Part shown: one piece after another, positions 23,618 to 61,633 of the stretch
Position numbering within the stretch: the stretch's first letter is position 1
Layout: every line of letters starts with the position of its first letter
Source: Ancylonema sp.
Taxonomy: Eukaryota
Assembly: GCA_050230475.1 (NCBI GenBank)
Contig: JBFLGF010000026.1
Span: 1-64,000 of the forward strand
DNA: 64,000 nucleotides
Reading direction: 5' to 3'
Translations under genes and position numbers: made by a program
The notes under the pieces: model-generated
What the model saw: the letters and a program-made list of their open reading frames with translations, nothing else
The model's database searches: none
What the model was told of the DNA's origin: nothing

Positions 23618-24187
23618 ATGTCTGGTTGGTCTCGTGATCAAAACCAACGCTTAGTTCGAAGAGAAGCAAGCGTATGGGGAAGTGGTGGTGAAAACAGTAG
23701 TGAGTCATCGCGCGATAGATTGCGATCGCGGTCACTATCAGCAGGACTGCAAGAGTTTGTTGACTCTCAGGGTGCGGCTGGATTGCGAGATCTTCAGCTT
23801 GTTTTGTACCAAGCCCCGAATCCTGCGCCACAAGCGCCTTTACTAGCTGGTTATTTTTGTTTCCGGCTGGTCGGGCTTGAGGGGGACTCAGAGATGAACA
23901 GTACGGTGGCTATGCAAAAATATTCGGGAGGGGGAGGTGTGGTGCAGCGGCACTTTATTCAGACGATGAAAGACAAGTGGGACGCTATAAAGAGGAACCC
24001 ACCGAAATTCTTGAGTGGGGAGTATGGACAACTTGAATTCCTGAAGGAGTCTGCCGCATATCTGGAAGGGGAGGCTCGGCTGGTACATGATGATTACCGA
24101 CAATCACTAGATCACACTGATCCTGATAACCCGAGTCGAGCTATCGCCATCGCAGTGGAGGTGGTGCGGGATATATACCGAGCATAA
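23618..24187 (+). pseudogene. gag-like N-terminal fragment of the gypsy element
   Basis: KYSG..FIQ..KW...AAYLEGEARL resembles the retrotransposon capsid N-terminus (LxGxA motif). It is followed by a stop and an acidic linker. Confidence 0.45.
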
Positions 24188-25033
24188 TATGGGCAGAAGG
24201 CCAGCTGGTGCAATCTGACCTCTACAGCTCCGAGGCTGAGGAAGGTCAGTTCGAGGATGCGGAGAGCGACACTTCTTTCGAGTGGGAGGAGGTGGAGGAG
24301 GGGAATATGGGGGGGGGTGAGAGTGAGGGAGTGGTGGAGTTAGAGTGGGAAGGGGAGGTGCAGAATCTGGCACCACTCACTCTGCTGGAGCAGATGGAGG
24401 AGCAGGCAGCCCGGGGGTGGGATATAGATGGGGAGATAGCTAGAGGGGTGGCGCTCGATGAGGCCAACCTCTTGCTGGAGGAGGAAATGGGTGGAAAAAG
24501 TCCGGGGTGGGCTGAGGAGGGGGTATGGGGGGGGTAATGGGGAAGCCTGGGAGAAATTCCAGGGCATGGCGGTCACAGAGTTGGGAGATAGCCCAAGGGA
24601 GGGTGGGCCAACCGCCCAACCGCGGCTGGTGGAGGGCCAACCGCGGGTGGGACCCCAACCGCAGCAGAGGCTGGGACTGGGGGTGGAGGGGGAGATTCAG
24701 AACTGGGGGAAGCACACGAGGGTGGTGCAACCTGACCCTAGGGTGATGGTAGGGGGGGTGGCTGTGAAAGGCACACGACAAAGCCAGCCCCCACCGCGGT
24801 TGGGGGAGCTGACTAGAGCCCCGAGTGAGGCAGATCTGCAAGTGGTAGAAGTGCAGCGGGCGGATGCAGCACGTCGAGCGGCGGCAGCTTTGAGGCTGTT
24901 GAAGGCGAGAGAGAGCTTGCTGGGAAAAGAAAAAATACAAAGATCCTGGAAGTGGGTGGGGGCAGCAGTGAGAGGTGCAGCACCATTTAACACCAGGGTA
25001 GTGAGTCTGAGGGAGGAGGCAGCGGAGGAGGGA

Positions 25034-26037
25034 GTGCATATTGTCGAGTTTTTTAGTGGCATCGGTTTGAGCGCCACAAGAGCAGCCTTGGCGGCAGGAT
25101 TGAGGGTGCGGCTGGTGTCATGCGCCGAGAGGGACCCCATCTCTAACAAGATCAACGAGGGGGTGATCGAAAAGCTAATCCTCGAGTACCCTGCCAGATC
25201 AACAGGGGGGCTTTTATTGGCTGGGAGAAAAGGCTGCCACAAGATGTGGGGCTGATTGGAGAGATGGCGCTGGTTAACCTGATTGCGCACAACGGGGAGG
25301 TGGATATAGTGGGAGCTGGCTGGGAGTGCCAGAGCATAACCCGGGGGGGGAGGCAGGAGGGGTATGCAGACAGGAGGTTTCAATACTTCTACAACTTGGT
25401 GCGCATCCTGGGGTGGCTGCAGCACCATCAGGAGAGATCGCCAGTCTACTTCTTGGAGAACACCTACCCGGGGGAGTTGGCCAAAATGCCTGAGTCGGTG
25501 CAAAAGACTGCACGGCTGATAGAGTCCTTCATTGGGCTGGGGGTGGTTTTTGACGCGGGAGGGTTGAGAGCAGCCAGCCATCGGCTGCGCTATTTCTAGA
25601 CGAACGCCATGGATCGGGATGAGCTGCAGGAGGCAGTCCCACAGGATCTGCACCCAAGCCCACAATTGAGGGAGATCTTGAGGGAGTATCACATACCCAA
25701 GGCACGTGCTTTCACCGATTTCCCGCCTCAGGTCGTAAGGAATTTCCGGGGAGGGGAGAGGATCCTAATGCCGACAATCTTCAGCTTTCAAGGGAGCTAT
25801 GCCTTCAGAACTCAAGAGGATGGGAGCCCAGGGGAAGGGCAAGTGTACAACACCAACACCCACAGGTGGGAGGAGCCAGATGTGGGCGAGAAAGAGCAGC
25901 TGCTGGGGTTCCCGGAGGGGACCACTCGGGCGGAGGGGGTTTCCGCGAAACAACGAGCGGAGAGGCTGGGAAAGTGCATGGAGGGCAACACCATGAGGTG
26001 GCTGGGGGCTCTGTGGGGAGCCAGCATGAGCAACTAG
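25034..26037 (+). pseudogene. DNMT3-like C5 cytosine DNA methyltransferase domain (one frameshift at ~25193, TAG at 25597-25599)
   Basis: Motif I VEFFSGIG (FxGxG at 25052-25066); motif II AERD; motif III QDV; motif IV VDIVGAGWECQS (Cys 25327-25329); motif VI YFLENT; motif VIII DAGGLRAASHRLRYF(W)TN, like DNMT3 DA...AAHRARYFWGN; motifs IX-X EKEQLLGFPEGTT....SAKQRAERLGKCM, like EMERVFGFP..YT...SRLARQRLLGRSW. Confidence 0.9.
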
Positions 26038-27104
26038 GGAGGCGCTGCCACCCAACCCCTAAATCGGGGGGGCCAGCCGCAGTCCAAGGGGGGCTCCGGG
26101 AGGGTGCGGTTGGGGCGCGGTTGGGGGCAACTGGCCAAGGCACACATTATTAGAGATACTTGGATCTGGGGAGCTCAGGAACACGATGGTGAACACCAGA
26201 GGAGTGATTTCGAAAAGGCCAGCCTTCCAGCATACGGAATGTATGCTGGTCTCATAGGGGGAGGGGAGATGGCAAAGGCACAAAAAGTGGTGCAGGCGCT
26301 GCTAGACTTCGATGCTGAAGCTGAAACTTTGGGAGCAGCTAAAAGGCATCAAGATAAACCAGGAAAACAGCTGGGTGCAGCCAGATTCAAGGGGACCAGC
26401 TCAGGGCAGCATTTATCATTGGCAGCTGGCCTACCCGACATAAAAATAGCTGAGGGAGATGCTGATGGGGCGATTTTGCACCTCCAGCAAGAAAAATCTG
26501 TAATTTTGGGATATGGTAGAGAGGAGGCTAAGGAGCCAGGATCACTAAGCATATAATAATTTGGACAACTCAGCAGTCCAGGAGAGCTAGGTAGCTCAGG
26601 CAGCCAAAAAGGCCAGAATTCTGTCCAGAATTCATATAAAGAGCAGTTAAACCCTAGGGTTTTGTAACTAGCAGCGGTTTTTTGAGCTGGTAGTGAGGAT
26701 AGGGTAGGCATTTCCAAAAAGTCATCTCATGTACTCAGCAACGCAATATCAAGAATTTCCAGCCCTTTTTACTATTCTGAGTGTAAAATGGATTTGGCCA
26801 GATCTGAAATCCAAGATTTGGATTTGCAGACAGGGGTTTTGGGGGGGGATGGCATGGATTTGAAACATGATATAGGGGGGCAAGAGCTATCCATAGAACC
26901 ATTGCATCATTGAACTCTGGATTTGGAGCAAAACTAGGGCCTGCAAAGCTGCAGATGGGTGCTCTGGAGGAGAGGCAGCGGTTGGGGGAGGTTGGGGGTG
27001 GGGCGGTTGGGGCCCCACTGAAAACTTCAGAAAATCATTAAAAAAAAATAAAAAAAATACAGGGGGATTTTAGGGGGAATGGTAGACAGCACTCAGGGGT
27101 AGGA

Positions 27105-28570
27105 GTGAGCACTAAGGGTGGGACCTTAAACCCAAAACCTGATTTTTCTAAGAATTTCAAGAAAATCAAGGTTGGGGGGGGATTAAAGGAAAGGGACCAG
27201 TTGCTAGTCTTGGAGCTGCTGAGGGAGTACAATGATCGCTTTGCTTACAGCATGGAGGATCTGGAGCTGTTCAAGGGAGAGCCAATGAGCATTGGGGTGG
27301 TGTCAGAGGGGAGGGTTAACAGGCCGCCGCACAAACTCGGGGAAAAGGAGTGGGAGTTTGTGGAGAAGCAGTGCGAGAAGCTGGAGAAGCTAAAGTTCAT
27401 CAGGAAATCACTTCATACCAAGTATGCTTCGGCTACTGTGGTGGTGACGAAGAAGGACGATGAGGGGAACTACATTAACTTCAAAAAGTGCGGGGACTAT
27501 AGGCTAATTAATGCGCTGACTCCGCTCGACAAGTACCCGCTCCCATTGATAGAGGACATCTTCGATGACATGAAGAGGGCAAAAATCTTCAGCAAGTTGG
27601 ATCTGAGGTCGGGGTACCATCAGATGCCACTACTGGAGGAGGACCGTGCCAAGACAGCATTCTGGGGAGCTAGGCGGATGCTGTGAGAGTGGTGCATGGT
27701 GCCGTTCGGACTGAAGAACGCGCCGCCTTACTTTCAGCGCCAGATGGACCACATTCTGGGGGGGCTGCCATTTGCGAGGTGTTACATCGATGACATCATC
27801 GTGTGGAGCAGCACGCTGGAGGAGCATCTGAGACACCTGCAAGAGGTCTTCAGACGACTTAGAGCAGCAGGGTTGAAGGTGTACCCAGGAAAGTGTTTGT
27901 TTGTTGTAGAGAGCATCGACTTCCTGGGGCACAAAATCACTGCGGCAGGGTTGCAGCCACAAGAGGAGAAAGTGAAGGCAGTCAAGGACCTGCCCGCGCC
28001 TACAAACTTGTCATCGCTAAGGGGGGCGTTGGGGCTATTCAGCTACTATCGCAAGTTTGTACCGCATTTCAGCACCATTGCCTTCCCGCTCAACAAGCTG
28101 TTGCGGAAAGGAGAGGTCTGGGAGGGGGGAACAGAAGGAGGCCTTTTTGAAACTGAAGGAGGCGTTGTGTTCGGCTAGGGTGCTGAGGCTACCAGATGGG
28201 AGCAAGCCATTCTACCTTGCTACTGACTAGAGTCAGAAGGGGATGGGGGCAGTCCTGGGGCACAAGAACGAGCGGGGGCTGGACTACGCTGTTGTAACCC
28301 AGGTGAGAAGAACTATTCCAGTTTTGATGGGGAATGCTTGGCTGCAGTGTGGGCGACTTCACATTTAAGGCAGTACCTGATCGGAAACCAGTTCACACTG
28401 GTGACCGACCATGAGCCAATCTAGTGGATCCTGTCGACAGAGAAGCTGTCTGGGAAGCTGGCGAGGTGGGCTTTGCCGCTGCAAGAGTTCGACTTCAAGG
28501 TGGAGCACAGGGCAGGTGCAGAGAACGGCAACGCACATTGCCTTTCCAATTTCCCCATGGATTCCATGGG
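27105..28570 (+). pseudogene. pol: Gypsy reverse transcriptase and RNase H, with stops and frameshifts
   Basis: CGDYRLIN, DKYPLPLIED, FSKLDLRSGYHQ, KTAFW, PFGLKNAPPYFQR, YIDDIIV, FLGH, LGLFSYYRKFVPHFS. RNase H: FYLATD*S, EKNYSSFDGECLAAVWA, FTLVTDH, ARWALPLQEFDF. Confidence 0.93.
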
Positions 28571-28849
28571 AGGACCTGAGGTACCTGACCGGGAGCGGGG
28601 CGACATCATTTTCCGACCCGAGACTCTTTTGGCTATGATGGCACTAGGAGTGGGGGGTCAAGAGAAGGTGGATGAAACCACTAAAGTCGCCTCAAGAGAG
28701 ATGTGGGCTGACAGGCACTTGTTGGAATACCTGCAAGCAGGCAAGCATAGTGAGAAGTGGGATGCTCTGGAGAGAGATCGGGTGTACGGGAGGGGGACCA
28801 AGTAGAGGTGGCTGGGAACCAGCCTGTACAAGGTGGGAGAGAAAGGAAG

Positions 28850-30135
28850 GATGCTAGTGATCCCTAGACCGCGTGAGAGGGAGGGGTTGGGGAAGAAAGT
28901 GCATGAGGAGATGGGGCACTTTGGGGTCATGAGAATAGCAGACCTACTGGGGAAGACCTATTGGTAAGAGGCATGGTGGAGATGGTGGAAAAAGTGGTGA
29001 AGGAGTGTATGAGCTGCGCTCGGGGCAAAGCCGCTTTCCAGATAGTCTAGGAGGAACCTTCAGCCGCTTCCCATCAAGGGACCTATGTATAGGTGGGGGG
29101 TAGACTTTGCCAATGGAGGAGACAGATAGGGGGAACAGATATGTGTTGGTGTGCATAGAGCATTTCACCAAGTGGGTGGAACTCATCCCAACAACCTCCA
29201 AGAAGGCCGCAGAGGTGGCATACCAGTTCAAGTCTCAGATCTTATCCCGGTATTGCGCACCAAGGGAGGTGATCACAGATCAGGGTAGTGAGTTTCGAGG
29301 AGAGTTCGAGACACTCCTGGCCCGCCATGAGATCACCCACAGGACTGCAGCCAGGGATCACCGGGATCACCCGCAGGGAGATGGGATGGCGGAGAGGATG
29401 GTGCAAACAATGAAGAAAGCACTCGGGAAGTGCTTGCTTGAGGGAGGTGGGGAGCAGTGGGATTAACTGCTGCCTTACGTAGCTATCTACACGCTTTCAA
29501 AGCAGAAGTCATTGGGCTACTCGCCATACTTCTTGCTGTTTGGAAGGGAGCCGATCTTTCAGGCTCGGATCCAGGACGAGGAGGAGAGAGTCTTTGATGA
29601 GACTCAAGGGGAGGAAGCCATGAAAGTGTTCCTAGATAGGAGGGGTGAGATCTTTTAAGAAGTTCTGCCACTGGCATTCACGAACCTGGCGATTGCCCAG
29701 CAGAGGGATGTAGAGAGATACAAGCTAGTCCGTGGAGGAGGGTGGGATAGGCCAAAAGCGAAGTTCAAGATTGGGGACTTTGTGCTGCTGAAGCGGCCGA
29801 CGGCTAGCTCCCTGGAGGTCAACACAAGGCCACACATCTTGAGGATAGTGGAGCTTAGAGACTCAGGGATAGCAATTCTTGGGGGTAGAGATGGGACGAC
29901 AATGCAGGAGCAGGTGAAGCACATTGATCACTGCACGGTACCGGTGGGAGACAAGAGGGTCTACCCGGAGTTGTATGATCGCGGGGAAACAACACACTGC
30001 CGGGTTTGTGGGTTGCGGTCCTACCCGAAGCGGATGGTGTTGTGCGACAAATGCAACCAGGGGTATCACACGTGGTGTTTGACACCACCCTTGGTAGGAG
30101 TGCCGGAGGGAAGCTGGACTTTTCCTCGACACTAG
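28850..30135 (+). pseudogene. Gypsy integrase (HHCC, DDE core, GPY/F-like region) with C-terminal PHD finger (29998-30132)
   Basis: VHEEMGHFG...YW...VKECMSC; CIEHFTKWVELIP; ITDQGSEF; HPQGDGMAERMVQT; FKIGDFVLLK; then CRVC..RMVLCDKCNQGYHTWCLTPPLVGVPEGSW (C4HC3 pattern with the last ligand pair changed to F and H). Confidence 0.88.
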
Positions 30136-30513: not shown

Positions 30514-31208
30514 TAATCAACCTTTCTGCAGGGAGTGTGATTGGTCAACTTCTATGAAAAGTGTGACACTAACCTAACCTCAATTCACTAAGTCAATAAA
30601 AACATTGAGAGTGAGAGGAGGTTGGCGCATGTAGCGCGGAGGCTCAATCAAGTTTGAGGCCTAGAGACCAAAGGTGGATCCTTTGGTGGTAACAAACTAA
30701 ACTTGCGGGACTTGTTTGGGTGTGGGTGATTTGACCAACTCCTCTTGGATAAGTGGGTGAGGGGCTAGCTACCCCAAACCCACCAATATCTTGGAGGAGT
30801 AGGTGTTCTCTAACCATTGTGCAAACGGTGTTTGGCAATGATGGGAAGTGCAGATCAAACATATTTTTTTCTCGGTGATTCCGAGCCGGGGTCGCGGGAG
30901 CTTTTCCCGTCTTGGGGGGGGGAGTGAGCATTAATTTGAAGCGCGTTGTGGTCGCGCGAGTTGCGGCACTGCATGCCGTCTAGGCGCGGTGATGGGGAGC
31001 GGTGCTCGGTAACTGCATGCCGTCTAGGCGCGGTTATGCGAGTACGGAGTGTGCCTAGGGAGATGGTCTTGCTATGTGTGATAGCTTGTACGGTCGAGTG
31101 GACCTTGTTATAGTCACGATGTGTACGGTGTGCCTATACGGTGTAGTGCTTACACGTGTAGCCGTACAACGAATCGATATAGGTACGACAAACAACGCTA
31201 CTCTCAGG

Positions 31209-31887
31209 TAGGGTTGTGAATTTTACATTTACGTATTTTTTTACATGACGTAATACGTCAATTACCGTTTTTTACGGTAATTTTACCGTAATCTAACAAA
31301 TTACATCGATATGCTCAATTACATAATACATGGCCAAACTGGAGATTACACGTAATATGCAAGGATTTCAATTAAGGTTTTTGTAAAAAAAAAAAAAAAA
31401 AAAAAGATGTGTGAAAAGTTTTTCTGTTTCGTTCCCCGTTGTAGATCGTGTATTTTCTAATCAATACTAGAACTATGTAGTTTGCATATTATTTGTCCAA
31501 CATGGACGGAGTTCTTGATGTTATAACCTAGATGTGTACCAAAATAGCATATCTTCTCTTCTCTTCTCTTCCCGTTGAAATCGGTACACCATGTTTTTCC
31601 TTTCCACCCATATTTTAGTGCATCATCTCCCCTCAAGTCCAATATTCCATTTCTTCCTCAACCTACTTATAGTGCTACTTGTGGCCATTTCTCCTTCACA
31701 AAATGCAATGTTAACTTTACATTTTAATCGTAAAGACTGTAAATTGGTAATTATCTCAATTACGGTTACATGTAAGGCCATCGTCAAATTACATGGGTTT
31801 TTGTCAAATGACGATATTATGGTAATTCGTACATTACGGTTGTATTACTTACGTCGAAACCCGGATTACGTTATATTTACAACCCTA
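31209..31887. mobile_element. Non-autonomous hAT element with intact 8-bp target-site duplication
   Basis: TIR TAGGGTTGTGAA / TTTACAACCCTA. TSD CTCTCAGG at 31201-31208 and 31888-31895. Subterminal TTAC/GTAA motif arrays. Confidence 0.92.
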
Positions 31888-36558: not shown

Positions 36559-43163
<6,605 letters not shown>

Positions 43164-44644: not shown

Positions 44645-45326
44645 AGACGCGGTGGGATCAACCCTACGTCAGCGGGGAGCCCACCCGAAACCTCTGGGCT
44701 CCGGGCTCCTTAAGCTCCGGGTTTCAAGATCGGTGCCTCGATCCCGGATTCTGTATTCCATTGTTTCGATCCAAACAAAATGTTATTTAGATGTTCTTTG
44801 TTGAACGCATATCCCTAGAACAACATGGTTTTCAATTTTTTTTCTAGCTGCTTCTAGATGCTTATGCTAAAAATGCGATGACAAATTCCGAGTCTCCAAT
44901 GTTGTTTTGTTATTTTCGTATTGGCATTCCATTCACCCATTCATTCATTTACATTACCCAAACGCTCCGTCACAAATGCCTCTACTTCTATGCTTTTTCA
45001 TTTTTTCTTCAATGCTCCCCATGAGATTTTGTTTACAAAGTTTTCCCACGTCTTGGAATGGCAAAATCAAGCAAAATAGAACAAAGAAAGACCGCGCCAT
45101 ATTTTCACGACACCAATACTGCTATCCAAAGCGATGGAAGCCGTTGGATGCGTAGAAGCGCCGTGAGGTGGCGATCTATTGGGCTATGTGGGTCTTTCCT
45201 CCCAACAAACTACTCTTAAGTAGCGCTACGATGTGACGCAAACTAGCATGCACATGTGCGAGGAGAAATAGTATGTTCCGGGAAGTTATCCAGAAAGTTA
45301 GCAGTACAAAGCTACTTCATGACGAT

Positions 45327-45764
45327 TGTTGGAAAAACACTTAATGCTTGAGTATGCATTTAGGGCCCTTTGGTGGCTTTAGGAATAATTGTGTGCCTAT
45401 AGCGAGTTAGTGACGTTGTATCGGATTATTGCGTGTGGTTTGTGTGGTCTGACTCAATAGTCGTGTTGTGTGTACGAAGCCGGAAATGTGTTGACCTACT
45501 TGTACGGGCCGGCAATAGTTAGCATGACATGTGGGCCGGACGTAGTTAGCGTAAGATGTGGGCCGACCGTTGTTCGGCAAGCCGGCCAATAGGGTGTGAT
45601 GTTATCTAGGCGACTATAAGTGGGTCATTTTGTACCACTCAAATTAATTCATTCATGTCGTTACATTGACCCCACGTGTCGAGTGTCATTGTTTTGAATT
45701 CACTTGAGGCGGTTGAGCAAATCTCGCAAGTCGAGTTTGGATTTCCCCAATAGACGATTCAACA
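45327..45764 (+). repeat. 5' LTR of copia element
   Basis: TGTTGGAAAAACAC...GACGATTCAACA; matches 50006-50565. Confidence 0.92.
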
Positions 45765-45766
45765 AT

Positions 45767-45778
45767 TGGTATCAGAGC
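45767..45778 (+). promoter_or_regulatory. Primer-binding site complementary to the initiator tRNA-Met 3' end
   Basis: TGGTATCAGAGC 2 nt downstream of the 5' LTR. Confidence 0.92.
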
Positions 45779-48700
45779 GGACGAAGGGTACGCGCGGCTC
45801 CGATTGGTCCTGAAGGAGGAGTCAACGTTTGGTCAACCGTGATCGAACAGTTGTTCCGGGAGAAGCGAATCTGGGGACACGTCCAAGGGACGATGCCACA
45901 CCCGGGCCCGCCCTTAATTGTGGGGGCGGGAGCCACAGCGGGGAGCCCCAGAATCCCTGCCATCCCAGAAGCCATGGGCGTCGTGGGCGTGCTAGAAATT
46001 GTTGTCGTGATTGCGAATCCCGGCGTGACGCAGGCCCAAGTGGATGCGCAGCAAATTCTGATCGAGAAGTGGGAGGCGAATGAAGCGAAGGCTACGGCAA
46101 TTCTGCTTCAAAGTCTGCGGCCAGTAGACGTGATTTCGATTCGCGCGCTACCGACAGTTCACGCCACATGGGCGAAGCTAATGTCAGACTACGTGCCAAG
46201 ATCGAAAATTCTGGCCATGAACGCGCACAATCGGCTCGTTAACTTAACAATGTTGCATGGCAAACGAGTTCTGGCCATGAAACAACGTCTGGAGTCCTAC
46301 GTGGACAAATGCGCGACGCAGCTGGTGGTCACGACGGAAATTGAGCGCACTAATGCGCTTTTGACACGTCCGACACCGAAATGGCAGAATTTTTGCGACT
46401 CTACGGCCGCTCAGAATCCTCTCCCAACGCTCGCGATGATCTTCCAGACCATGCTAGGCCTTGAGGAGAGGTGGAGCACGCGAGAGAAGGAGTCAGAGCA
46501 CGCGGAAGCAGCGTACGCCACGTAGGGCAGAGGCGAAATTCTGGCGGGGGAGGCGCAATATGCGCAAATGTGCGCTCTAGCGGGAGTCGCGGAGATCGCC
46601 AGAAGCAGAGGTTAACGCAGAGGTCCTGGAGCAGGCTTGTCCAAGTCAACGTGCTACTGCTGCGGGAAAGAGGGACATTTCGCACGTGACTGCACGCATC
46701 GAGACAAGGCGTGCTCTTCCTCTGGCAAAACGGGGCACCTGGCAGCGACCTGTCGATCAGCGGGCGCATCAGTGGCGGAAGCAGCGGCGGCGCAGACGAG
46801 CGAAGGCGGAGGCGTGAAGAAACCCGCCAAGAAGGTCACTTTTGCCGCCCTCGGCAAGAAGAAGCGGGCGGCCCTGGCGGATGCGCGGTTGGCAGAGGTT
46901 GGGGAGACGGAGGTGTATGTGGCGGAGGCGGAGGCGCACTCCGTCCAGACAAGCGGGGGCGAAAGCAGCGACATCGTGTGGGTGGGCGACTCAGGGGCGG
47001 ACCGGCACTTCGCCCGCTCGGCGGACATTCTGTGGGACCTCCAGCCGTGCCCGGAGCCTGTCATCATCCGCCAGCTGGTGGGGGAGGTTATCGCCACGCC
47101 CCAGAAGACGGCGCATCTGATCTTCGAGGACAAGGAGGGGGAAGCTGTACACGTGGCATTGGCCAATACCCTTCTCGTCCCCGAGATGGCGATCAACCTC
47201 TTCAGCATCCAGAAGATGCGACATGCCGGGATTCTTCGGGAGTACCCCCAGACGGTGGGACGCGTGTGGATGCGCAACAAGGAGTGAAGCTTCGACGAAG
47301 CTGCGAGGGGGAGGCCGACGATGAACTGCCGCACCCTGCTAAGGGAGATCGGAAGCCCCAACCTCTCCCCTCCCCTGCCCCCTCCCCCTCTCCCACCCCC
47401 AGCAGAGGTCCTGGTAGCAGCGGTGGATGCCAACCTTCTACTCCTGCGGACGGGGCATACTGCCCTCCCCTCCCTCCAGCGGTTGGCCAGAGGTGGCCTT
47501 GTCAGGGGTGTAACGAAACGCTAGGAGCCAATTCATACTTAGAGCCACTTTTGCGGCTAGGTATTAATTGCCAGCATCGGATATAAGGCGCAGCCCTTAT
47601 ATCCAGGGGTGGGCTCATGGATATGAGTCCACGGGTTAATCGGACACGTGGGAAGGATGCACCGCGTGCATCCTCAGCCAGTGTCTCGATTGCCCGGTTG
47701 ACTGCGAAACGACATTGACTGTCGACAGGAATAAATGTCCTAGAGGTTACAGGACTAAGGGTGCGTACCCTTGCGCCCTCGTAGCTGCCTCTTCGGACAT
47801 CTAAGCGCAATATGTATATTGACCTGCTCCGACTAGCTTCGACAGCTCGCGCAGAACTCTGAGTATGCGTCTATTTCATACAACTCGAGAGGATGCCTTA
47901 GACTCAATTGAGCCCTATATAGCTCATTATGCTAACCTTTAACAGCGCGCGATCAGGCCCTCATCAGCCATGCGCGTGCTTTGGGATGAAGCTGTTGAAA
48001 CAAGTCCAATATGCGGCTGTATATTCGAACGAGAATCGGGACTGACGATTACGCTACCGGTACGTCGGAACCCACAAGGCAACGGAGCTGCCGAGCTCGT
48101 GCAAAGTGCGCAGCATAATTGACAGCGGTCGCGCCCCCTAGTAACCTGCGCGCCTTCGGCTGACGCTCCGGGACTGTGCGCACATCTGAGTGAAAACAGC
48201 TATTTCATACAACTCAGGCCGAGAGGATAGCGCCTTAGACTCAGGAGTGCTGACCTATATAGCTCATTATCCCAAGGAGCTCAACGTTTCGGGCGACCCG
48301 ACCCATCGACCTCGTCCATGCCGACCTTGCGGGCCCGATCAGGCCCTCATCATGGGGCCATGGCTCGTTTGTCTTCGTGCTTTGGGATGATTTCAGCCGC
48401 AAATCTTGGGTCATCATTCTGAAATCCAAGTCCAATGTTGAAATGCGGCTGAGACAATGGATCGCATTGGTCGAACGAGAATCAGGGGAGAAATTGGGTC
48501 GATTTCGAACTGACAATGGGGGGGAATTTGTGAAGGAGACCCTCAAGGAGAGGCTGAAGCTACCGGGCGTGCAACAGGAGTTCACCCCCCCTCGGAACCC
48601 ACAAGGCAACGGAGCTGCCGAGCGTCTGAACCGGACCCTCCAGGACAAAGTGCGCAGCATGATGGCGCAGGCGGGGCTCGGGGGCGGAAGCTGGGGGGAG

Positions 48701-50005
48701 ACATTTTTGGCGGCATCCTATCTTCGCAACCGGGGGCCAGTCAATGGTCTGGAGTTGACTCCGCAAGAATTGTGTGCAAAGTCTTCGCCCCTTTGTAGAA
48801 GCCTCAGAGGAGCGGGAAGCTTGGGGCGGTGCGCTGGGAGGGGGTTCATCTCGGGTATGCTGAAAATAGCCCCTCCCCTGCAAGGTTCTCAACGTGGCGG
48901 GGGCAGATTTCGACGAAGGGGTGGAGAGGGGCTGGTGGCGCAAGGAGCTGCAGCAGGAGGGGCCAGAGATGGAGGCAATCGCCTTCCCTGAGCTCGCCGC
49001 GTGTCCAGATCCCCCTCCCCCACCCCCTCCCCCACCCCCGTTCCCACCCCCACCCACAGATCCCCCGCTGGAAGACGACCTCCCCGACCTGGTAGAGGAC
49101 GAGTCCGGCGACGGGGGGGGGGATGGCGATTCTGACGGGGATTCTGACCCCGGTGATGACTGGGGGGCGGGCGGAGGGGCGGCTGGAGGGGCGGAAGTGG
49201 CAGAATTAGGGGCGGGAAGGACGGCAAGGGGTAGGGGCCGCCCTAGGGGCGCTAGGGCCCCAATTTTCACCAATTCTCCTCGGAGAAGTGCTAGGGAGAA
49301 CCGGGGAGTGCCCCCATTGCGATTTGTGGAAGCTTTCACCGCGACAGTCGTCATTGCATGCCCCGGATCCGTGTCCGAAGCGCTTAGTGGACCCGAAAAA
49401 GAAAAATGGGAAAAGGCGATTAATTCCGAATTGGAGAGTTTGGAGGAAAATAACGTGTACGAGGTAGTGGAAAGGCCTCCGGGGAAAGTCATCGGGATGA
49501 AATGGGTGCTTCGGGAAAAAACGGACGCAAAGGGGAAAGGCGCGGGTGGTGGTGAACGGGCTTAGTGAAACGGTGGGAGTCGATTACTCCAACACGTTTG
49601 CACCGGCGGGACACCATGAAGGACTTCGGGGGTTGGTGAACGCGGGAGGATCCATGAGTGGGGGTTTGAGCATCAAGAGGGGGTTCTTTGTGACAACCAA
49701 AGTGCTATGAAAATAGCAAAGAACCCGGTGTTTCACAAGAGGTCTAAGCATATTAACATCAAGTACCACTATATTCGGGAGAAGGTTGAGACGGGTGAGG
49801 TGGAACTTGTGTATGTGCCTACAAAGGCAATGGCGGCCGATCAATTGACGAAGCATGTGGGATTGAGTGTGTTTATGGAGGGGAAGGACTTGGGCTTGAT
49901 GGGAATGGGATAATTGGAGTAGAAGGTTGTGACAAGAGTAGGACAATGGGAGTTTGTCATATAGCATGGGGATGCATAAACTTTGTCATTAATTGAGAGG
50001 GGGAT

Positions 50006-50565
50006 TGTTCAAAAACACTAAATGCCTAAGTATGCATTTAGGGCCCTTTGGTGGCTTTAGGAATAATTGTGTGCCTATAGCGAGTTAGTGACGTTGTATC
50101 GGGTTATTTCGGGTGGTTTGTGTGGCTTGACTCAATAGTCGTGTTGTGTGTACGAAGCCGGCAATGTGTTGACCTACTTGTACGGGCCGGCGGCAATAGT
50201 TAGCATGACATGCGGGCCGGACGTAGTTAGCGTAAGATGTGGGCCGATCGTTATTCGGCAAGCCGGCCAATAGGCGGTGTGATGTTATGACCACTCGAGG
50301 CGACTATAAGTGGGTCGATATCTAGTTTGTACTCACTACTCAAATCAATTGCATTCATGTACGGCCCCGCGACATGTACTCACGTATGAGCTACTTTGGT
50401 TATGACGCATATCCGCCAGTAACCTATCCTCTCGAGTGTCGATCCATGACAACTAACGTTTTCACATATAATCATTGCGGACACGTGAGTGGCGGTACAT
50501 CATAGAAACGGCTGCTACGTGCACGCAATCTCGCAGCTAGTGCACCCCCAATAGACGATTCAACA
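50006..50565 (+). repeat. 3' LTR of copia element (interior 50360-50530 scrambled)
   Basis: TGTTCAAAAACAC...GACGATTCAACA, preceded by the PPT. Confidence 0.9.
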
Positions 50566-57132: not shown

Positions 57133-59570
57133 TCATTTCTCAACACGTTCCTCTTGTGATGGGACGTTTCGTATTCTCTTTGCCATGAGCACTCTTGTAC
57201 GCCTCCCAAGGAGTCTAGAACTCCATTTTGGGTCAGTCGCTAAAGCAAGATAACCAGAATTTTGGTACAACTTCCTCGCAGGGATGTTGTCCTCGTATAC
57301 ATGTAACACTAAATAGTGGAAACCCCACGCTAATGCTCTCTTCTCAACACCGGCCAACAACAAAGACCCAACTCCACCACGTCTGCAAACACTCCAACAA
57401 ATGCTTGTGAGTGTATTGAAACATACTACACCACCTCCTCTTCACACCTCCTCTTTATTTCTCAACATTCATACATGGTTACGAAAGAATGCAATGGAGA
57501 TTTACCGTGCGTTTTCTGCGACTGCCATGCCGGAGACGTAAAGATACTCATCGACTTCTTCAAGCTCGCGAAGCACACTCGAGTCTCCCAAAGCTGCAAT
57601 GTCTACAATGCCTACAACATCTTGTCCGGAACTCATATTATGTGGAGCTGAGTTTTGGGCCTCCTCTTCAGATTTCTTCAGTTGTTGTTGATCCTTCCGT
57701 ACCGCAACTAGACATGCGTATCTGAAGGAAGTGAGGTGACACACTAGTCAATGATTCCAAAACAGACTATTCGGAGAGTAGTACATCACTCCATACTCCC
57801 TACCGAGATACCTCCAGTAATTTGCCAAACTTACCACAAGAAGAAAAAAATGGGGCATTCAACAATTTCATGAAGAAATAAAAACATAAAACAACATCAA
57901 TAGTGTTGATTGTGTTTTTACAGCTACTCAAAGACTCAAAGGCTTGTGGTTTGTAGCAAACCAACAACCACCAAAGCACACATGAGGCGTAAACACTCGA
58001 AAAGTGTTCAGAAACACTCGAAAAATGTTAAGAAACACTCGAAAAGTGTTTAGAAACACTCGAAAAGTGTTGAGAAGCACTCGAAAAGTGTTGAGAAACA
58101 CTCGAAAAGTGTTGAGAACCATTAACCAGAGTTGGGTACACAACGCGTTGGGTCACAGTTTGTAGTGAGAGCACAAAGCCTAGGTAAATTCGAGGTTAGT
58201 GGTTCAAGGATTATCTAAATTTCGGCATGCATTGATTGCTTGTTGGTCTTGATATCTCTAGAGAATGAAGTATGGATTCGGTCTACTTCAGACCTTGACT
58301 TCTTACTGAAGTGACATCTTTCTATATACCAAAAAAGTGCAAAATGCATTACTATTTGTGACATTATTACTTGTGACAGGCTTTGGTATCCCGAGAAGTA
58401 CATAAGGAAATACAACATTTTAAAACGAAGAAAAAAATCAAAAGTACAATAGACATTATCGAGTCTTTGGAACTGCATTGCACTTCGTTGTTTTTATTAA
58501 CATCGGCCCTAGATGTTGTAAGTGTGCGTGCAATACTTCACTCCATTTCAGTCCTTTTCGACAAATCTAACTCTCAATCATTTCAGACTACACATCGAGA
58601 TTTTATGTTGGTTCTAAGTTCCTTCCGGGAGGACACAAAAATAGGGATACTTTGAGAAACTTACCTCCCAGACGGAGAGTACCGCACTTTTTGAAGCAGA
58701 GAGTCGTAGACTTCCGCCTGGAGTTCAGAACTCAAAAAAATATAAATCACTCATGGAGAGAGTGGTTGTTTAGGCATGTCAACTAACAACCAAAATGCAA
58801 AAATATAAAGAGTACGGACTTGTAACGCCACTGCCTGCCTTTACGGGACAAACCCCTAATCCATGATTATTGAGGTGATAATCTTCGCCCCCCTGGACAC
58901 TTGGTACCTGGAAAAAGTTTAGGAAAATGCCGTCCCACGCAGGTATTGGCCCTCCTTCAAAGAACTCATCTGCCTGTATCCTTGCTGCGTCCCGCAGGTC
59001 TGTGAATATAGCCTCCCGGATTTGAAAGGCATGCCCTTCGGCAAGGATGCCCTCAGAGGGTGTCACTGAGTGTAAATCGTCCTGAAGTAAAATTTCTTCC
59101 TGTGCCCCTGTGTTCATATACTCCTCTACTTCGGAAGTAGCGAAGTCAAGGTCTACAGCTTTAGCGTAGCTCCTTGCACCGCTCGAGCGATTTTGTGCTG
59201 CACAGCAGAACTGACCTCTCGAAGAACGAACGTCACAGCTTTTTGTGTCTAATGAGAGATGACGGCCCTGGCCAGTCTTTGAGATGGACACCGAGTGGGA
59301 TGGAAAGTTCGCATTTGGATTGCTACACAACACTTTCAGCAGCATTCGACGTTTGCTAGGACACAAGCTGCGGGACATAGCTCCTGCAAATGCATGCCCT
59401 GATTTGGACTGATTACTGTCTCTACTACAGTAATGCGACCCATAATACTCAGCCCCAGTGCCTACGTGGCTGCGGACTGATAGATCAAGAAGGAACGTGG
59501 ATTTATACACTGATAAAAGCTGCATCCGTGGAACAACGGAAGGCATCATTACAATGATGTGTTGCTTCAT
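57133..59570 (-). CDS. GNAT-family N-acetyltransferase with transit-peptide-like N-terminus (plastid GNAT type), 4 exons
   Basis: Exons ~59570-58908 (FQIREA...ARIQADEF), ~58718-58665, ~57722-57505 (YACLVA..VVGIVD..YLYVSGMAVAENAR) and ~57382-57133 (LVLHVYEDNIPARKLYQNSGY...LMAKRI). Start codon uncertain. Confidence 0.85.
57991..58116. repeat. Intronic minisatellite, six 21-bp palindromic units (AAACACTCGAAAAGTGTTNAG)
   Basis: Units start at 57991, 58012, 58033, 58054, 58075 and 58096; the consensus contains the AACACT..AGTGTT dyad. Confidence 0.93.
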
Positions 59571-60188
59571 TTATGTTTGCATCAAGCAAGATCACCACAG
59601 ATTCAATTTTTGTGTGATGCAAAGAATTACTCAAGCGCTGCTACTGACAGACTCTTGGACCATGGTAACAATTCTCCTACACCGCGCAAGGGGTGAAACT
59701 AGTACATTACCCAGCCTGGCCATAACTTATTGCTGCTTCAGGAAAAAACATATTGCTGGGGAGGGCAGCATCACAAGCCTCTGCTCAACCACCCATCAGC
59801 AGTCATGGCTCCTCCAGAACGGGGTTGCACCGAAGACAAGCGAAGTGTTTGGGCAAACGTGGGCCACAGCTACTTGAATTCGCGTGGCAATCCCAGGGGC
59901 CCAACTTCGCAAGATCGGAGCAAGGTAACGACGCAAACTTCGATATAAAGATCCCGTTGTAAAGAAACAAGTCGCTGTGAGAAAATTTACCTTTTTTGTT
60001 TGCAACAATTTCAGTCAGGTTCTACTGTACGTCGACGTGCCTATAAAGACGCATCTGCAGCTTTCCCAGCTCTGGTGGTGTCGTCGATCGTGCTTCCACA
60101 ACGCATGATTTTCACTTTCAGTCCAGAGGGAACTCTTGGAATTAGTTTTTATTTTTGTATATTCGTACACATAGCTCGATAGTCAACG

Positions 60189-61633
60189 ATGTTCAAGAAG
60201 CCATCGACGGCGAGGAATATCCGCAAGCGCCCGGCTGCTGAGGAGGGAAGTGAGGATGAAGGCAGCGAAAGTGTCGTAGTACAAAAAAACAAATCTTCTC
60301 GGAAGGCGGATGGGAAGCTTGCCTTCAGTACAGAATCAGGGAGCCAACGACGAGATAAGAACAGAGAACTTGAGGGGCCTGAGGAAACTAATGTGCCAGC
60401 GTCTTACACGTTCGCCTTCGAATCTGACCGTCAAGTTCAAACTGCCAATGACAGTAATGCTACTGCCACGCTTGAAATAGACACGGAGAAGGATCGTGAT
60501 GCTCGTGCAATTCGTGAAAAGGTGCTGAAGCAGGCACAGCAGGCGCTGGAAGGATCTACTTCCACAGATTCCAAGGTTTACAAAGGAATAGCGGGGTATA
60601 CTGATCATAAAGCAGGTTTCAGGAGAGAACATACTGTGGGAGGGGATAAAGCTCTTGGGACACACGGGCCTCTGAGAGCCTCTGCACATATACGGAGGTC
60701 GGTCAGATTTGATTACCAGCCAGACCTGTGCAAGGACTACAAAGAGACTGGTTACTGTGGGTATGGTGACGCATGCAAGTTTTTGCACGATAGAGGAGAC
60801 TACAAGTCTGGTTGGCAGATGGAGAAGGAGTGGGACGAGAAAGAGAAGAAAAGAAGGGACAAAGTGGCTTCAGGAAGAGGGGGTGAAGATGGGGAGGAGG
60901 GTGACTCAGAGAATGATGGCAGCGAGGAGGAGGAGGATGAGCTGCCGTTTGCTTGCTTCATATGTCGCGAAGCTTTCACGGACCCTGTAGTGACACGTTG
61001 TAACCACTACTTCTGCGAACATTGCGCTCTAAAGGTATGACAGACTTTCCTCTGTTGCGGATCATCTGCTTATACCACCTTTTTCATGTGTTCGTTAGCA
61101 TCCATTCTCGTATTTGAAGCAATTCGGTGTATCTAGGGGCGGTGCCTCATAGTTTTTTTTTTTGTGGGAGGCCAGTTTTTGCCACGGCGTTGTAGAAAAG
61201 GACATGCATGCAAGGCTAGTTCATGTAAAAACTAGAATGGTCGTGATAGCCTGTCTTCTATGAGTTTGCCGCTGGAGTCAGCCTGCTGCTATTGCAAAGA
61301 ATGGATGACATTACACCAAGATGACATTACACCAAGGTTTGTTTTGCATAGTTTTCAGATGAAGATGCTTGGTTCCGGTGGGTGGTGTGGACCTCGGGAT
61401 GTCAATCTCTGTTTGTGCATGCATGTATGCGTGCATGTATGCATGCTTACCTCTGATGTGAAATTCATGCACACATGTATGTTTCCTAATGCGATACATT
61501 TAATGTTGTGCAGCACCACAACACAAGCAAAAAGTGTTTCGTTTGCAACCAACAAACAAACGGAGTTTTCAATACTGCGACGGCAATCTTGGTCCGAGAG
61601 AAGAAAGCTAAAGCAAGTGCCGCTGCCACATAG
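60189..61633 (+). CDS. CWC24: CCCH zinc finger + RING spliceosomal protein CWC24/RNF113, 2 exons (60189-61034, 61514-61633)
   Basis: [105 protein letters not shown]. Confidence 0.95.

What the first reader, a model, noticed from the sequence alone, without database searches (positions are those of the whole stretch)
29998..30135. PHD finger at the integrase C-terminus, where chromoviruses carry a chromodomain
Seen: CRVC-x8-MVLCDKCNQGYHTWCLTPPLVGVPEGSW in frame with the integrase tail. Known: this spacing and the LCDxC..YHxxCLxPPL..VPxGxW pattern typify BAZ2/KDM5-PHD1-like fingers that bind unmodified H3 N-termini; chromoviral integrases use C-terminal chromodomains for targeting. Inference: an alternative integration-targeting module that avoids H3K4-methylated promoters. 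The last ligand pair reads F..H, so this copy may be damaged.
Basis: partly seen in the sequence, partly recalled or inferred. Interest (0 to 1): 0.7.

Follow-up and report, generated by a model that had tools for sequence, protein, structure and literature searches.

The report
PHD-tipped integrase of Gypsy-DNMT3 retrotransposon
A dead jumping gene ends its integrase with a damaged PHD zinc finger that is intact and conserved in hundreds of relatives from the green lineage, where it likely grips histone H3 to steer where new copies land, a known kind of add-on in a little-described family.

Summary
The PHD finger is real (Pfam E 9e-10). It ends the integrase of a decayed Ty3/Gypsy element that also carries a DNMT3-like methyltransferase. 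The Phe at zinc ligand 7 is this copy's own lesion: a 92%-identical sister protein and about 99% of sister-contig depth have Cys. The His at ligand 8 marks its subclade (13 of 13). The finger is a family trait: 87 of 92 relatives with this integrase tail carry it at nearly fixed spacing. They form one RT clade apart from chromodomain elements, with chlorophyte and streptophyte labels. The DNMT sits in two different places; the finger never leaves the integrase. It lacks the methyl-K4 cage (0 of 209 fingers) and keeps the H3 Ala1/Arg2 contacts, so integrase tethering to H3 is likely. The Lys4-reading acids are patchy (5 of 13 in this subclade), so 'avoids H3K4-methylated promoters' is unproven. 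No binding or insertion data exist. PHDs on Gypsy polyproteins and Gypsy-DNMT3 elements are in print; I found no paper on this fusion. This scan noted the same family on other DNA four times before.

The parts
23747..24229 (+). N-terminal gag fragment. The rest of gag and the protease of intact relatives have no match in this copy.
   Evidence: tblastn with P0060 and P0063-P0066, E 2e-7 to 3e-14; P0064 residues 204-1094 find no collinear match on this strand
24848..26037 (+). DNMT3-like C5 cytosine methyltransferase domain, broken by a frameshift near 25190-25240 and a stop at 25597
   Evidence: 41-47% identity to P0057; a family profile ranks DRM and DNMT3 structures first, E 2e-12 to 1e-10; stop positions
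27168..28130 (+). Reverse transcriptase with its N-terminal lead-in, one stop at 27684
   Evidence: Pfam RVT_1 E 4.5e-6 and 9.9e-20; 53% identity to P0061 over 27168-29111
28130..29110 (+). RNase H, integrase zinc-binding domain and start of the catalytic core; several stops and frameshifts; limits approximate
   Evidence: tblastn; three-frame translation; stops at 28422, 28803, 28965
29104..29658 (+). Integrase catalytic core (3' part) and long helical linker; stops at 29464 and 29656
   Evidence: Pfam rve E 2.9e-11
29761..29934 (+). Integrase C-terminal SH3-like barrel; no GPY/F letters, an RPH motif in their place
   Evidence: In the model of relative P0027, strands 266-316; retroviral integrase core-plus-CTD structures align out to residues 318-325; alignment
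29998..30135 (+). PHD finger of the C4-H-C2-H variant with ligand 7 lost (Phe), followed by the stop codon
30914..30924 (+). Probable polypurine tract followed by TG; the 3' non-coding stretch up to about 30867 is shared by sister copies
   Evidence: sequence; contig depth stays high to about 30867. The role is inferred.

Best explanation
This is a broken copy of a PHD zinc finger fused to the end of a Ty3/Gypsy integrase; in working family members the finger likely binds the first residues of histone H3 and so likely tethers the integration complex to nucleosomes, biasing where new copies land. Shown: the fusion, its fixed position about 18 residues behind the C-terminal barrel, its conservation across one large clade, purifying selection in two distant subgroups, the kept Ala1 pocket (Pro, Trp) and Arg2 acid, and the missing methyl-K4 cage. 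Inferred: H3 binding, action as part of the mature integrase, and any effect on target choice. A preference for unmethylated Lys4 is probable for the acidic fingers of the RT-RH-DNMT-IN clade. It is weaker or uncertain for this window's subclade, which may read Ala1/Arg2 with little regard to Lys4. This copy is dead.
For: Fusion in single ORFs: P0059 and P0061 are PR-DNMT-RT-RH-IN-PHD. Of the 120 best relatives by RT-RH-IN (a query region without the finger), 92 have this tail barrel and 87 of those a PHD 14-23 residues behind it. In a second, PHD-biased set, 134 of 143 have the pair, with spacing 18 in 113. The DNMT lies before RT or between RH and IN, the finger always on IN. One RT-RH clade of 96 rows, SH-aLRT 99. 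Mean identity of the finger 0.45, against 0.42 for the barrel and 0.53 for the core; finger and core distances correlate, rho 0.31, 0 of 999 permutations. Finger pN 0.07-0.15 with saturated synonymous sites in 6 of 6 pairs; omega 0.14 and 0.19 in 2 further pairs. Cage Trp 0 of 83 and 0 of 126; Asp/Glu after Cys3 77 of 83 and 121 of 126. That Asp and the Trp are essential for H3 binding in KDM5A/B PHD1 (PMC4225485 passages; 10.1101/715474 section 13). Best solved relatives: ATXR5, DPF2/3, KDM5B/A PHD1, WSTF, CHD4, UHRF1. Precedent: Gypsy-7a_cRei has a PHD in Gag-Pol and 2.6-fold intergenic insertion bias (PMC9940879 passages).
Against: No binding assay or insertion map exists for this family. 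The Lys4-contacting acids (KDM5B D308 and E321 positions) occur at either site in only 41 of 83 relatives, 79 of 126 in the second set and 5 of 13 in this subclade; the window keeps one of two. In KDM5A their loss lowers affinity about 6-fold and flattens methyl discrimination. Mean net charge is +1.1 in the subclade and +4 in the window, against -3.6 in the other clade, which is unfavourable for a basic tail. Five of 92 relatives lack a detectable finger behind the barrel (three Closterium-labelled rows, P0078, and P0083 with a degenerate one), so it can be lost. The 60 solved matches shown include EHD3 (E 3e-6), listed as an H3K4me1 reader (abstract start). Selection was measured only in distant subgroups. 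The model is modest (pTM 0.43).
Confidence: 0.6

Rival explanations
1. The finger serves the methyltransferase, as the ADD domain does in DNMT3A/3L (recalled): it would direct DNA methylation to K4-unmethylated nucleosomes at or near the new copy, rather than choose the target site.
For: The two domains co-occur: 66 of 120 relatives have the DNMT in the same ORF. In one clade of 49 rows the DNMT lies directly before integrase, so a DNMT-IN-PHD chain is possible. The DNMT is DNMT3-like and shows no ADD or PWWP by Pfam.
Against: The finger keeps a fixed distance to the integrase barrel while the DNMT moves. In several relatives the DNMT ends one ORF (P0057, P0058, P0062) and RT-IN-PHD ORFs lack it. 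DNMT-bearing Closterium-labelled rows lack the finger. The KnitGypsy DNMT gave no activity in yeast, which the authors call inconclusive (PMC5890265 section 10).
Confidence: 0.15
2. In this subclade the finger has drifted from histone reading to binding DNA or RNA, or to a structural role in the intasome.
For: Basic first loop, net charge up to +5, His as last ligand, loss of most Lys4 acids.
Against: The Arg2 acid (12 of 13), the Pro (13 of 13) and the Trp of the Ala1 pocket are kept in the subclade. Several members are neutral or acidic (P0059 -4, P0066 -2).
Confidence: 0.15
3. The finger strictly reads unmethylated H3K4 and keeps insertions out of active promoters.
For: No cage Trp in 209 fingers; closest solved relatives are unmodified-H3 readers; the window's subfamily keeps Glu four residues before Cys1, as P0236 does.
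Against: The Lys4 acids are patchy. No insertion data. This is a narrower version of the best explanation, and its probability is counted within it.
Confidence: 0.3
4. A chance fusion or a captured host exon in one dead copy.
For: The copy is decayed and the finger has lost a ligand.
Against: 87 of 92 relatives have it at the same place; a sister is 92% identical; purifying selection.
Confidence: 0.01

Closest known systems
KnitGypsy-Dnmt3 of Klebsormidium nitens / streptophyte 'Gypsy-DNMT3' (PMC5890265, sections 9-10 and passages; named so in 10.64898/2026.05.21.726589, passages)
   Same: Ty3/Gypsy Pol with an unpermuted DNMT3-like domain. DIRS-like split repeats are described there and seen here in relatives L004, L012/L013 and L015.
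   Different: The paper's main text has no 'PHD'; its Fig. 4c and main supplement were not visible to me and may label one. No KnitGypsy sequence was available, so kinship is by architecture. Here the lineage also holds chlorophyte-labelled members and a second DNMT position.
Chromoviruses (for example MAGGY; chromodomain at the integrase C-terminus; PMC2774666 and PMC6673714 passages)
   Same: A histone-reader module behind the integrase C-terminal barrel; likely the same tethering logic.
Gypsy-7a_cRei and REM1 of Chlamydomonas (PMC9940879 passages; PMC2774666 passages)
   Same: PHD in a green-algal Ty3/Gypsy element, proposed to guide insertion; Gypsy-7a shows intergenic bias.
   Different: The Fig. 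6 legend lists the Gypsy-7a PHD between RH and INT, a layout seen here in P0153 and P0162 outside the clade. REM1 is a chromovirus with a truncated, reversed integrase module. No DNMT is listed for Gypsy-7a in that legend.
KDM5A/B PHD1, ATXR5, BAZ2A/B, UHRF1 and DPF PHD2 fingers (PMC4225485, PMC5415848, PMC3241642 passages; 10.1101/715474 section 13)
   Same: Best sequence and fold matches; same Ala1 pocket, Arg2 acid and no cage Trp.
   Different: Lys4 acids often missing; His as eighth ligand and a basic surface in this subclade.
Other transposons with captured readers: Ginger1-9_HM (PHD after an integrase-like transposase, PMC2836005), CopiaMBD (PMC6673714), EpiLTRs (DNMT + DAM + chromodomain, 10.64898/2026.05.21.726589), cnidarian PHD fusions (10.1101/2021.11.30.470311); all seen as passages
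   Same: Reader domains, alone or with a methyltransferase, on mobile-element proteins.
   Different: Different element classes or readers; none of the passages describes a DNMT3 + integrase-terminal PHD Gypsy lineage.

Membership tests
PHD finger (PF00628) | Profile match above the curated cut-off | tested here: met
   38.9 bits against 24, E 8.8e-10
PHD finger (PF00628) | Eight zinc ligands C4-H-C3 | tested here: not met
   This copy has Phe at 7 and His at 8. Subclade relatives are C4-H-C2-H (13 of 13); the other 70 parsed relatives are C4-H-C3. It is a damaged member of a variant.
Unmodified-H3 reader PHDs (KDM5 PHD1 / BAZ2 / ATXR5 type) | No aromatic-cage Trp two residues before the ligand His (position recalled from ING/BPTF/TAF3; invariance of the Trp from PMC3241642) | tested here: met
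   Gly in the window; Trp in 0 of 83 and 0 of 126
Unmodified-H3 reader PHDs (KDM5 PHD1 / BAZ2 / ATXR5 type) | Ala1 pocket (Pro, Gly, Trp) and Arg2 acid after Cys3 | tested here: met
   Window VPEGSW and Asp; relatives Pro 78 of 83, Gly 61 of 83, acid 77 of 83
Unmodified-H3 reader PHDs (KDM5 PHD1 / BAZ2 / ATXR5 type) | Acidic residues that contact unmethylated Lys4 (before Cys1; acidic wall before Cys3) | tested here: inconclusive
   Window has the first, not the second; either in 41 of 83, 79 of 126 and 5 of 13 in the subclade
Unmodified-H3 reader PHDs (KDM5 PHD1 / BAZ2 / ATXR5 type) | Measured binding to H3K4me0 over H3K4me3 | not testable with these tools
   needs a binding assay
Ty3/Gypsy retrotransposon | Order RT - RNase H - DDE integrase with H2C2 zinc finger and SH3-like tail | tested here: met
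Ty3/Gypsy retrotransposon | Two LTRs and a target-site duplication | tested here: inconclusive
   No terminal repeat found around this copy; relatives show split repeats
Chromovirus | Chromodomain at the integrase C-terminus | tested here: not met
   No Chromo hit in the window tail; 5 of the 120 listed relatives carry PF00385 and none has this clade's barrel-PHD tail
Chromovirus | RT falls in the chromovirus clade | tested here: inconclusive
   3 chromodomain rows lie outside the 96-row clade, but no named reference lineages were in the tree and the root is a midpoint
Gypsy-DNMT3 (KnitGypsy-Dnmt3 type) | Unpermuted DNMT3-related domain within the Pol region | tested here: met
Gypsy-DNMT3 (KnitGypsy-Dnmt3 type) | DIRS-like split repeats (A ... 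B-A-B) | tested here: inconclusive
   Not found in the window. Full pattern in L012/L013 (one element); 3' B-A-B in L004 and L015. These belong to another subclade.
Gypsy-DNMT3 (KnitGypsy-Dnmt3 type) | Sequence kinship with the K. nitens element | not testable with these tools
   No sequence in the supplements I could read. The one K. nitens-labelled hit, P0164, lacks DNMT and PHD and was dropped from the tree.

The most novel reading that the evidence does not exclude
An unnamed, old Ty3/Gypsy lineage spanning chlorophytes and streptophytes runs a 'read, insert, write' cycle: the integrase-terminal PHD docks on H3 tails, the element inserts through TG...CA ends built from permuted repeats (A ... 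PPT-B-A-B), and its own DNMT3-like enzyme methylates the new copy or its site. It would be a PHD-based counterpart to chromoviruses, with hundreds of sub-lineages, in which reader specificity has been retuned between clades (acidic C4HC3 against basic C4HC2H fingers).
Probability: 0.2. Interest if true: 0.75.

Novelty: new variant of a known kind. Interest (0 to 1): 0.4.

Why it matters
Chromodomains are the classic case of a retrotransposon reading histones to choose a target. This family offers a large natural parallel: at least 370 clusters at 50% identity match the tail profile at E up to 1e-30, with natural losses of the finger and two chemical types of it. That makes PHD-guided integration directly testable, and it links to the open question of why retrotransposons carry DNA methyltransferases. 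The surprise is limited: PHDs on Gypsy polyproteins, the targeting idea and Gypsy-DNMT3 elements are all published, and this copy is dead.

Tried and rejected
No whole genome is held, so copy number, insertion sites and flanking chromatin could not be studied. Terminal repeats: none found around this copy by exact seeds, blastn or local alignment (score 32 against 27-44 for shuffles); no coverage profile across the whole element was obtained, so its ends stay open. No RNA holder was listed, which says nothing on expression. Runs X3-X7 hold small shares; no habitat is inferred. The viral-contig scan gave only 1 PHD-only match. A single-sequence search of the DNMT against solved structures found nothing; a profile was needed. 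A PHD-only tree was built but not read; nearest-neighbour scores were used instead (86 of 87 tail fingers are nearest to another tail finger, against 39 other PHDs; biased by set size), so the host donor is unknown. The L015-L014 pair failed in the selection script. Look-ups of earlier findings by sequence and by relatives gave nothing. Rejected: chance fusion; chromovirus membership; reading the last His as damage. Literature searches found no paper describing a PHD at the integrase C-terminus of Gypsy-DNMT3 elements; the library lacks most subscription journals, Repbase and theses.

Full report
Observation. The stretch 29998-30132 encodes a PHD finger: Pfam PHD at E 8.8e-10, above the curated cut-off. 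Ligand codons fall at 29998, 30007, 30043, 30052 (Cys), 30067 (His), 30076 (Cys), 30121 (Phe) and 30130 (His), then a stop. The finger closes a stop-free frame from 29659 that holds the integrase tail. Two stops separate it from the catalytic core in the same frame, and a frameshift near 29110 splits the core.

The element. Upstream lie a gag fragment (23747-24229), a broken cytosine methyltransferase (24848-26037), RT, RNase H and integrase, 53% identical to the intact protein P0061. Most of gag and the protease are missing. Intact relatives encode PR-DNMT-RT-RH-IN-PHD in one frame (P0059, P0061). A profile of the methyltransferase ranks DRM and DNMT3 structures first, and its motifs are in the unpermuted order. 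No terminal repeats were found around this copy. A probable polypurine tract lies at 30914-30924. The host is probably a streptophyte: a nearby CWC24-like gene is nearest a mostly Streptophyta cluster. This is a lead only.

Damage against variant. The Phe at ligand 7 is private. Sister contigs read G at 30122 in about 99% of depth in X1 and all depth in X2, X3 and X5 (X1 and X2 are one sample). P0236 matches the tail at 114 of 124 residues and has Cys; its first 112 residues do not align to the window's tail. The His at ligand 8 is a subclade trait: all 13 proteins in the window's RT clade have it, and the other 70 parsed relatives have Cys. It also appears in 5 of 126 fingers of a second set; two of these look unrelated to the subclade and one is a misparse.

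Family. A search with RT-RH-IN of P0059, without the finger, gave 1141 hits, of which 120 were listed. Of these, 92 have this family's tail barrel and 87 of the 92 have a PHD 14-23 residues behind it; 66 of 120 have the DNMT in the same ORF. An RT-RH tree of 115 of the 120 plus the window (P0096, P0140, P0154, P0164 and P0174 dropped for incomplete RT-RH) puts all barrel-PHD rows in one clade of 96 (SH-aLRT 99; quick search, no bootstrap, midpoint root, no named references). The 3 chromodomain rows lie outside. Of the 95 proteins inside, 86 have the finger, 5 have the barrel without a detectable finger, and 4 end or diverge after the core. A 49-row subclade (support 100) has the DNMT between RNase H and integrase in 48 rows and includes rows labelled Haematococcus and Monoraphidium; Closterium-labelled rows have the DNMT before RT and no finger. 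A profile of the tail found 370 clusters at E up to 1e-30 among 1.84 billion representatives. Of 143 new proteins among the best 150, 134 have barrel plus PHD, with spacing 18 in 113; this set is biased because the profile includes the finger. The Atlas has a cluster of 80 with rve and PHD, commonest recorded phylum Mollusca; I did not test whether it is kin.

Selection and inheritance. Over 86 relatives the finger is as conserved as the barrel (0.45 against 0.42 mean identity; core 0.53) and its distances track those of the core (rho 0.31, 0 of 999 permutations). In six pairs of metagenome loci, synonymous sites are saturated while the finger's pN is 0.07-0.15, below the integrase's in all six. 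Two more pairs give omega 0.14 and 0.19, against 0.33 and 0.38 for integrase. These loci are from distant subgroups.

Structure. A model of relative P0027 (mean pLDDT 66.6, pTM 0.43; 74-87 in the finger) shows catalytic core, long helix, beta barrel and PHD. Foamy-virus and Ty3 integrases are the best matches. Retroviral core-plus-CTD structures align to about residue 320; the finger matches ATXR5 PHD (Z 9.3), UHRF1 (Z 8.0, rmsd 1.3) and ORC1b (Z 7.7). So the finger sits where chromoviruses have the chromodomain.

What it would read. The 60 solved sequences shown (of 63) are led by ATXR5, DPF2/3, KDM5B/A PHD1, WSTF, CHD4 and UHRF1; ING, BPTF and TAF3 are absent, and EHD3 appears low down. Mapped on KDM5B PHD1 (PMC4225485 passages), the Ala1 pocket and the Arg2 acid are kept: acid in 77 of 83 and 121 of 126 parsed fingers (4 of 87 and 8 of 134 did not parse; the Trp is required by the first parsing pattern). 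The cage Trp is absent in all 209 (its position is recalled). The Lys4 acids are patchy: either site in 41 of 83, 79 of 126 and 5 of 13 in the window's subclade. In KDM5A, losing them cuts affinity about 6-fold and flattens methyl discrimination (10.1101/715474 section 13); in BAZ2A/B the acidic wall also matters (PMC5415848 passages). Net charge averages +1.1 in the subclade and -3.6 in the DNMT-middle clade. H3 N-terminal binding is therefore likely, but strict avoidance of methylated Lys4 is not established here.

Mechanism. Most likely (0.6) the finger stays on the mature integrase and tethers it to H3 tails. Its fixed link to the barrel, while the DNMT changes place, argues that it serves integration and not the methyltransferase (0.15). 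A drift to nucleic-acid binding in this subclade remains possible (0.15). All functional steps are inferred.

What is known. KnitGypsy-Dnmt3 is a Gypsy element with a DNMT3 domain and DIRS-like repeats (PMC5890265; I read sections 9 and 10, passages, supplement 3, and a term search of three supplements; Fig. 4c and the main supplement were not visible and may show the PHD). Relatives L012/L013 show A ... B-A-B, and L004 and L015 the 3' B-A-B; in L004 it follows a G-run directly, and A starts with TG and B ends with CA. PHDs on retrotransposons are called widespread, with the targeting idea stated (PMC6673714 passages). Gypsy-7a_cRei carries one and inserts with an intergenic bias (PMC9940879 passages). 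Ginger1-9_HM has one after an integrase-like transposase (PMC2836005 passages), and cnidarian fusions are reported (10.1101/2021.11.30.470311 passages). EpiLTRs pair methyltransferases with a chromodomain (10.64898/2026.05.21.726589 passages). Seven searches found no description of this fusion. Four earlier notes of this scan report the same family in other DNA; they are unchecked AI notes, seen after I had reached the same reading.

Verdict. A real, conserved, clade-defining fusion in a dead copy; a new variant of a known kind. Interest 0.4.

Noticed in passing
window 31209-31887: Small non-coding DNA transposon with TAGGGTTGT terminal inverted repeats and an 8-bp target duplication (hAT-like by recalled signature), just 3' of the element.
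   Followed up: partly
window 45324-50360: Copia-type LTR element: LTRs 89% identical, gag, zinc knuckle and integrase hits, no RT hit among frames of 105 residues or more; CpG O/E 0.90 against 0.50 in the Gypsy pol.
   Followed up: partly
window 60183-61037: CWC24-like CCCH-RING host gene, nearest Atlas cluster mostly Streptophyta.
   Followed up: partly
window 26090-27100: About 1 kb between DNMT and RT, longer than the linker of intact relatives and largely unmatched; may hold an insertion.
   Followed up: no
L004 1810-2460; L012 1585-1956 and 10542-11216; L015 1069-1819: Relatives with a DDE integrase end in PPT-B-A-B with only A at the 5' end (seen in L012); the layout equals a two-LTR circle opened between B and A, which hints at an unusual replication route.
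   Followed up: partly
L003, L005, L007, L010, L011; proteins P0101-P0167: The DNMT-middle clade mostly carries a 300-400 residue extension after the PHD, less conserved but under some constraint; P0121 has a weak Tudor hit there.
   Followed up: no
proteins P0140, P0153, P0162: Other PHD placements in Gypsy Pol: after a chromodomain (P0140, Haematococcus label) and between RNase H and integrase (P0153; P0162 also has a Dam domain).
   Followed up: partly
proteins P0126, P0338: Family members deposited under bacterial names, probably eukaryotic contigs in metagenome bins.
   Followed up: no
window 38838-39251, 40123-40646, 57970-58137: Tandem and AT-rich simple repeats.
   Followed up: no
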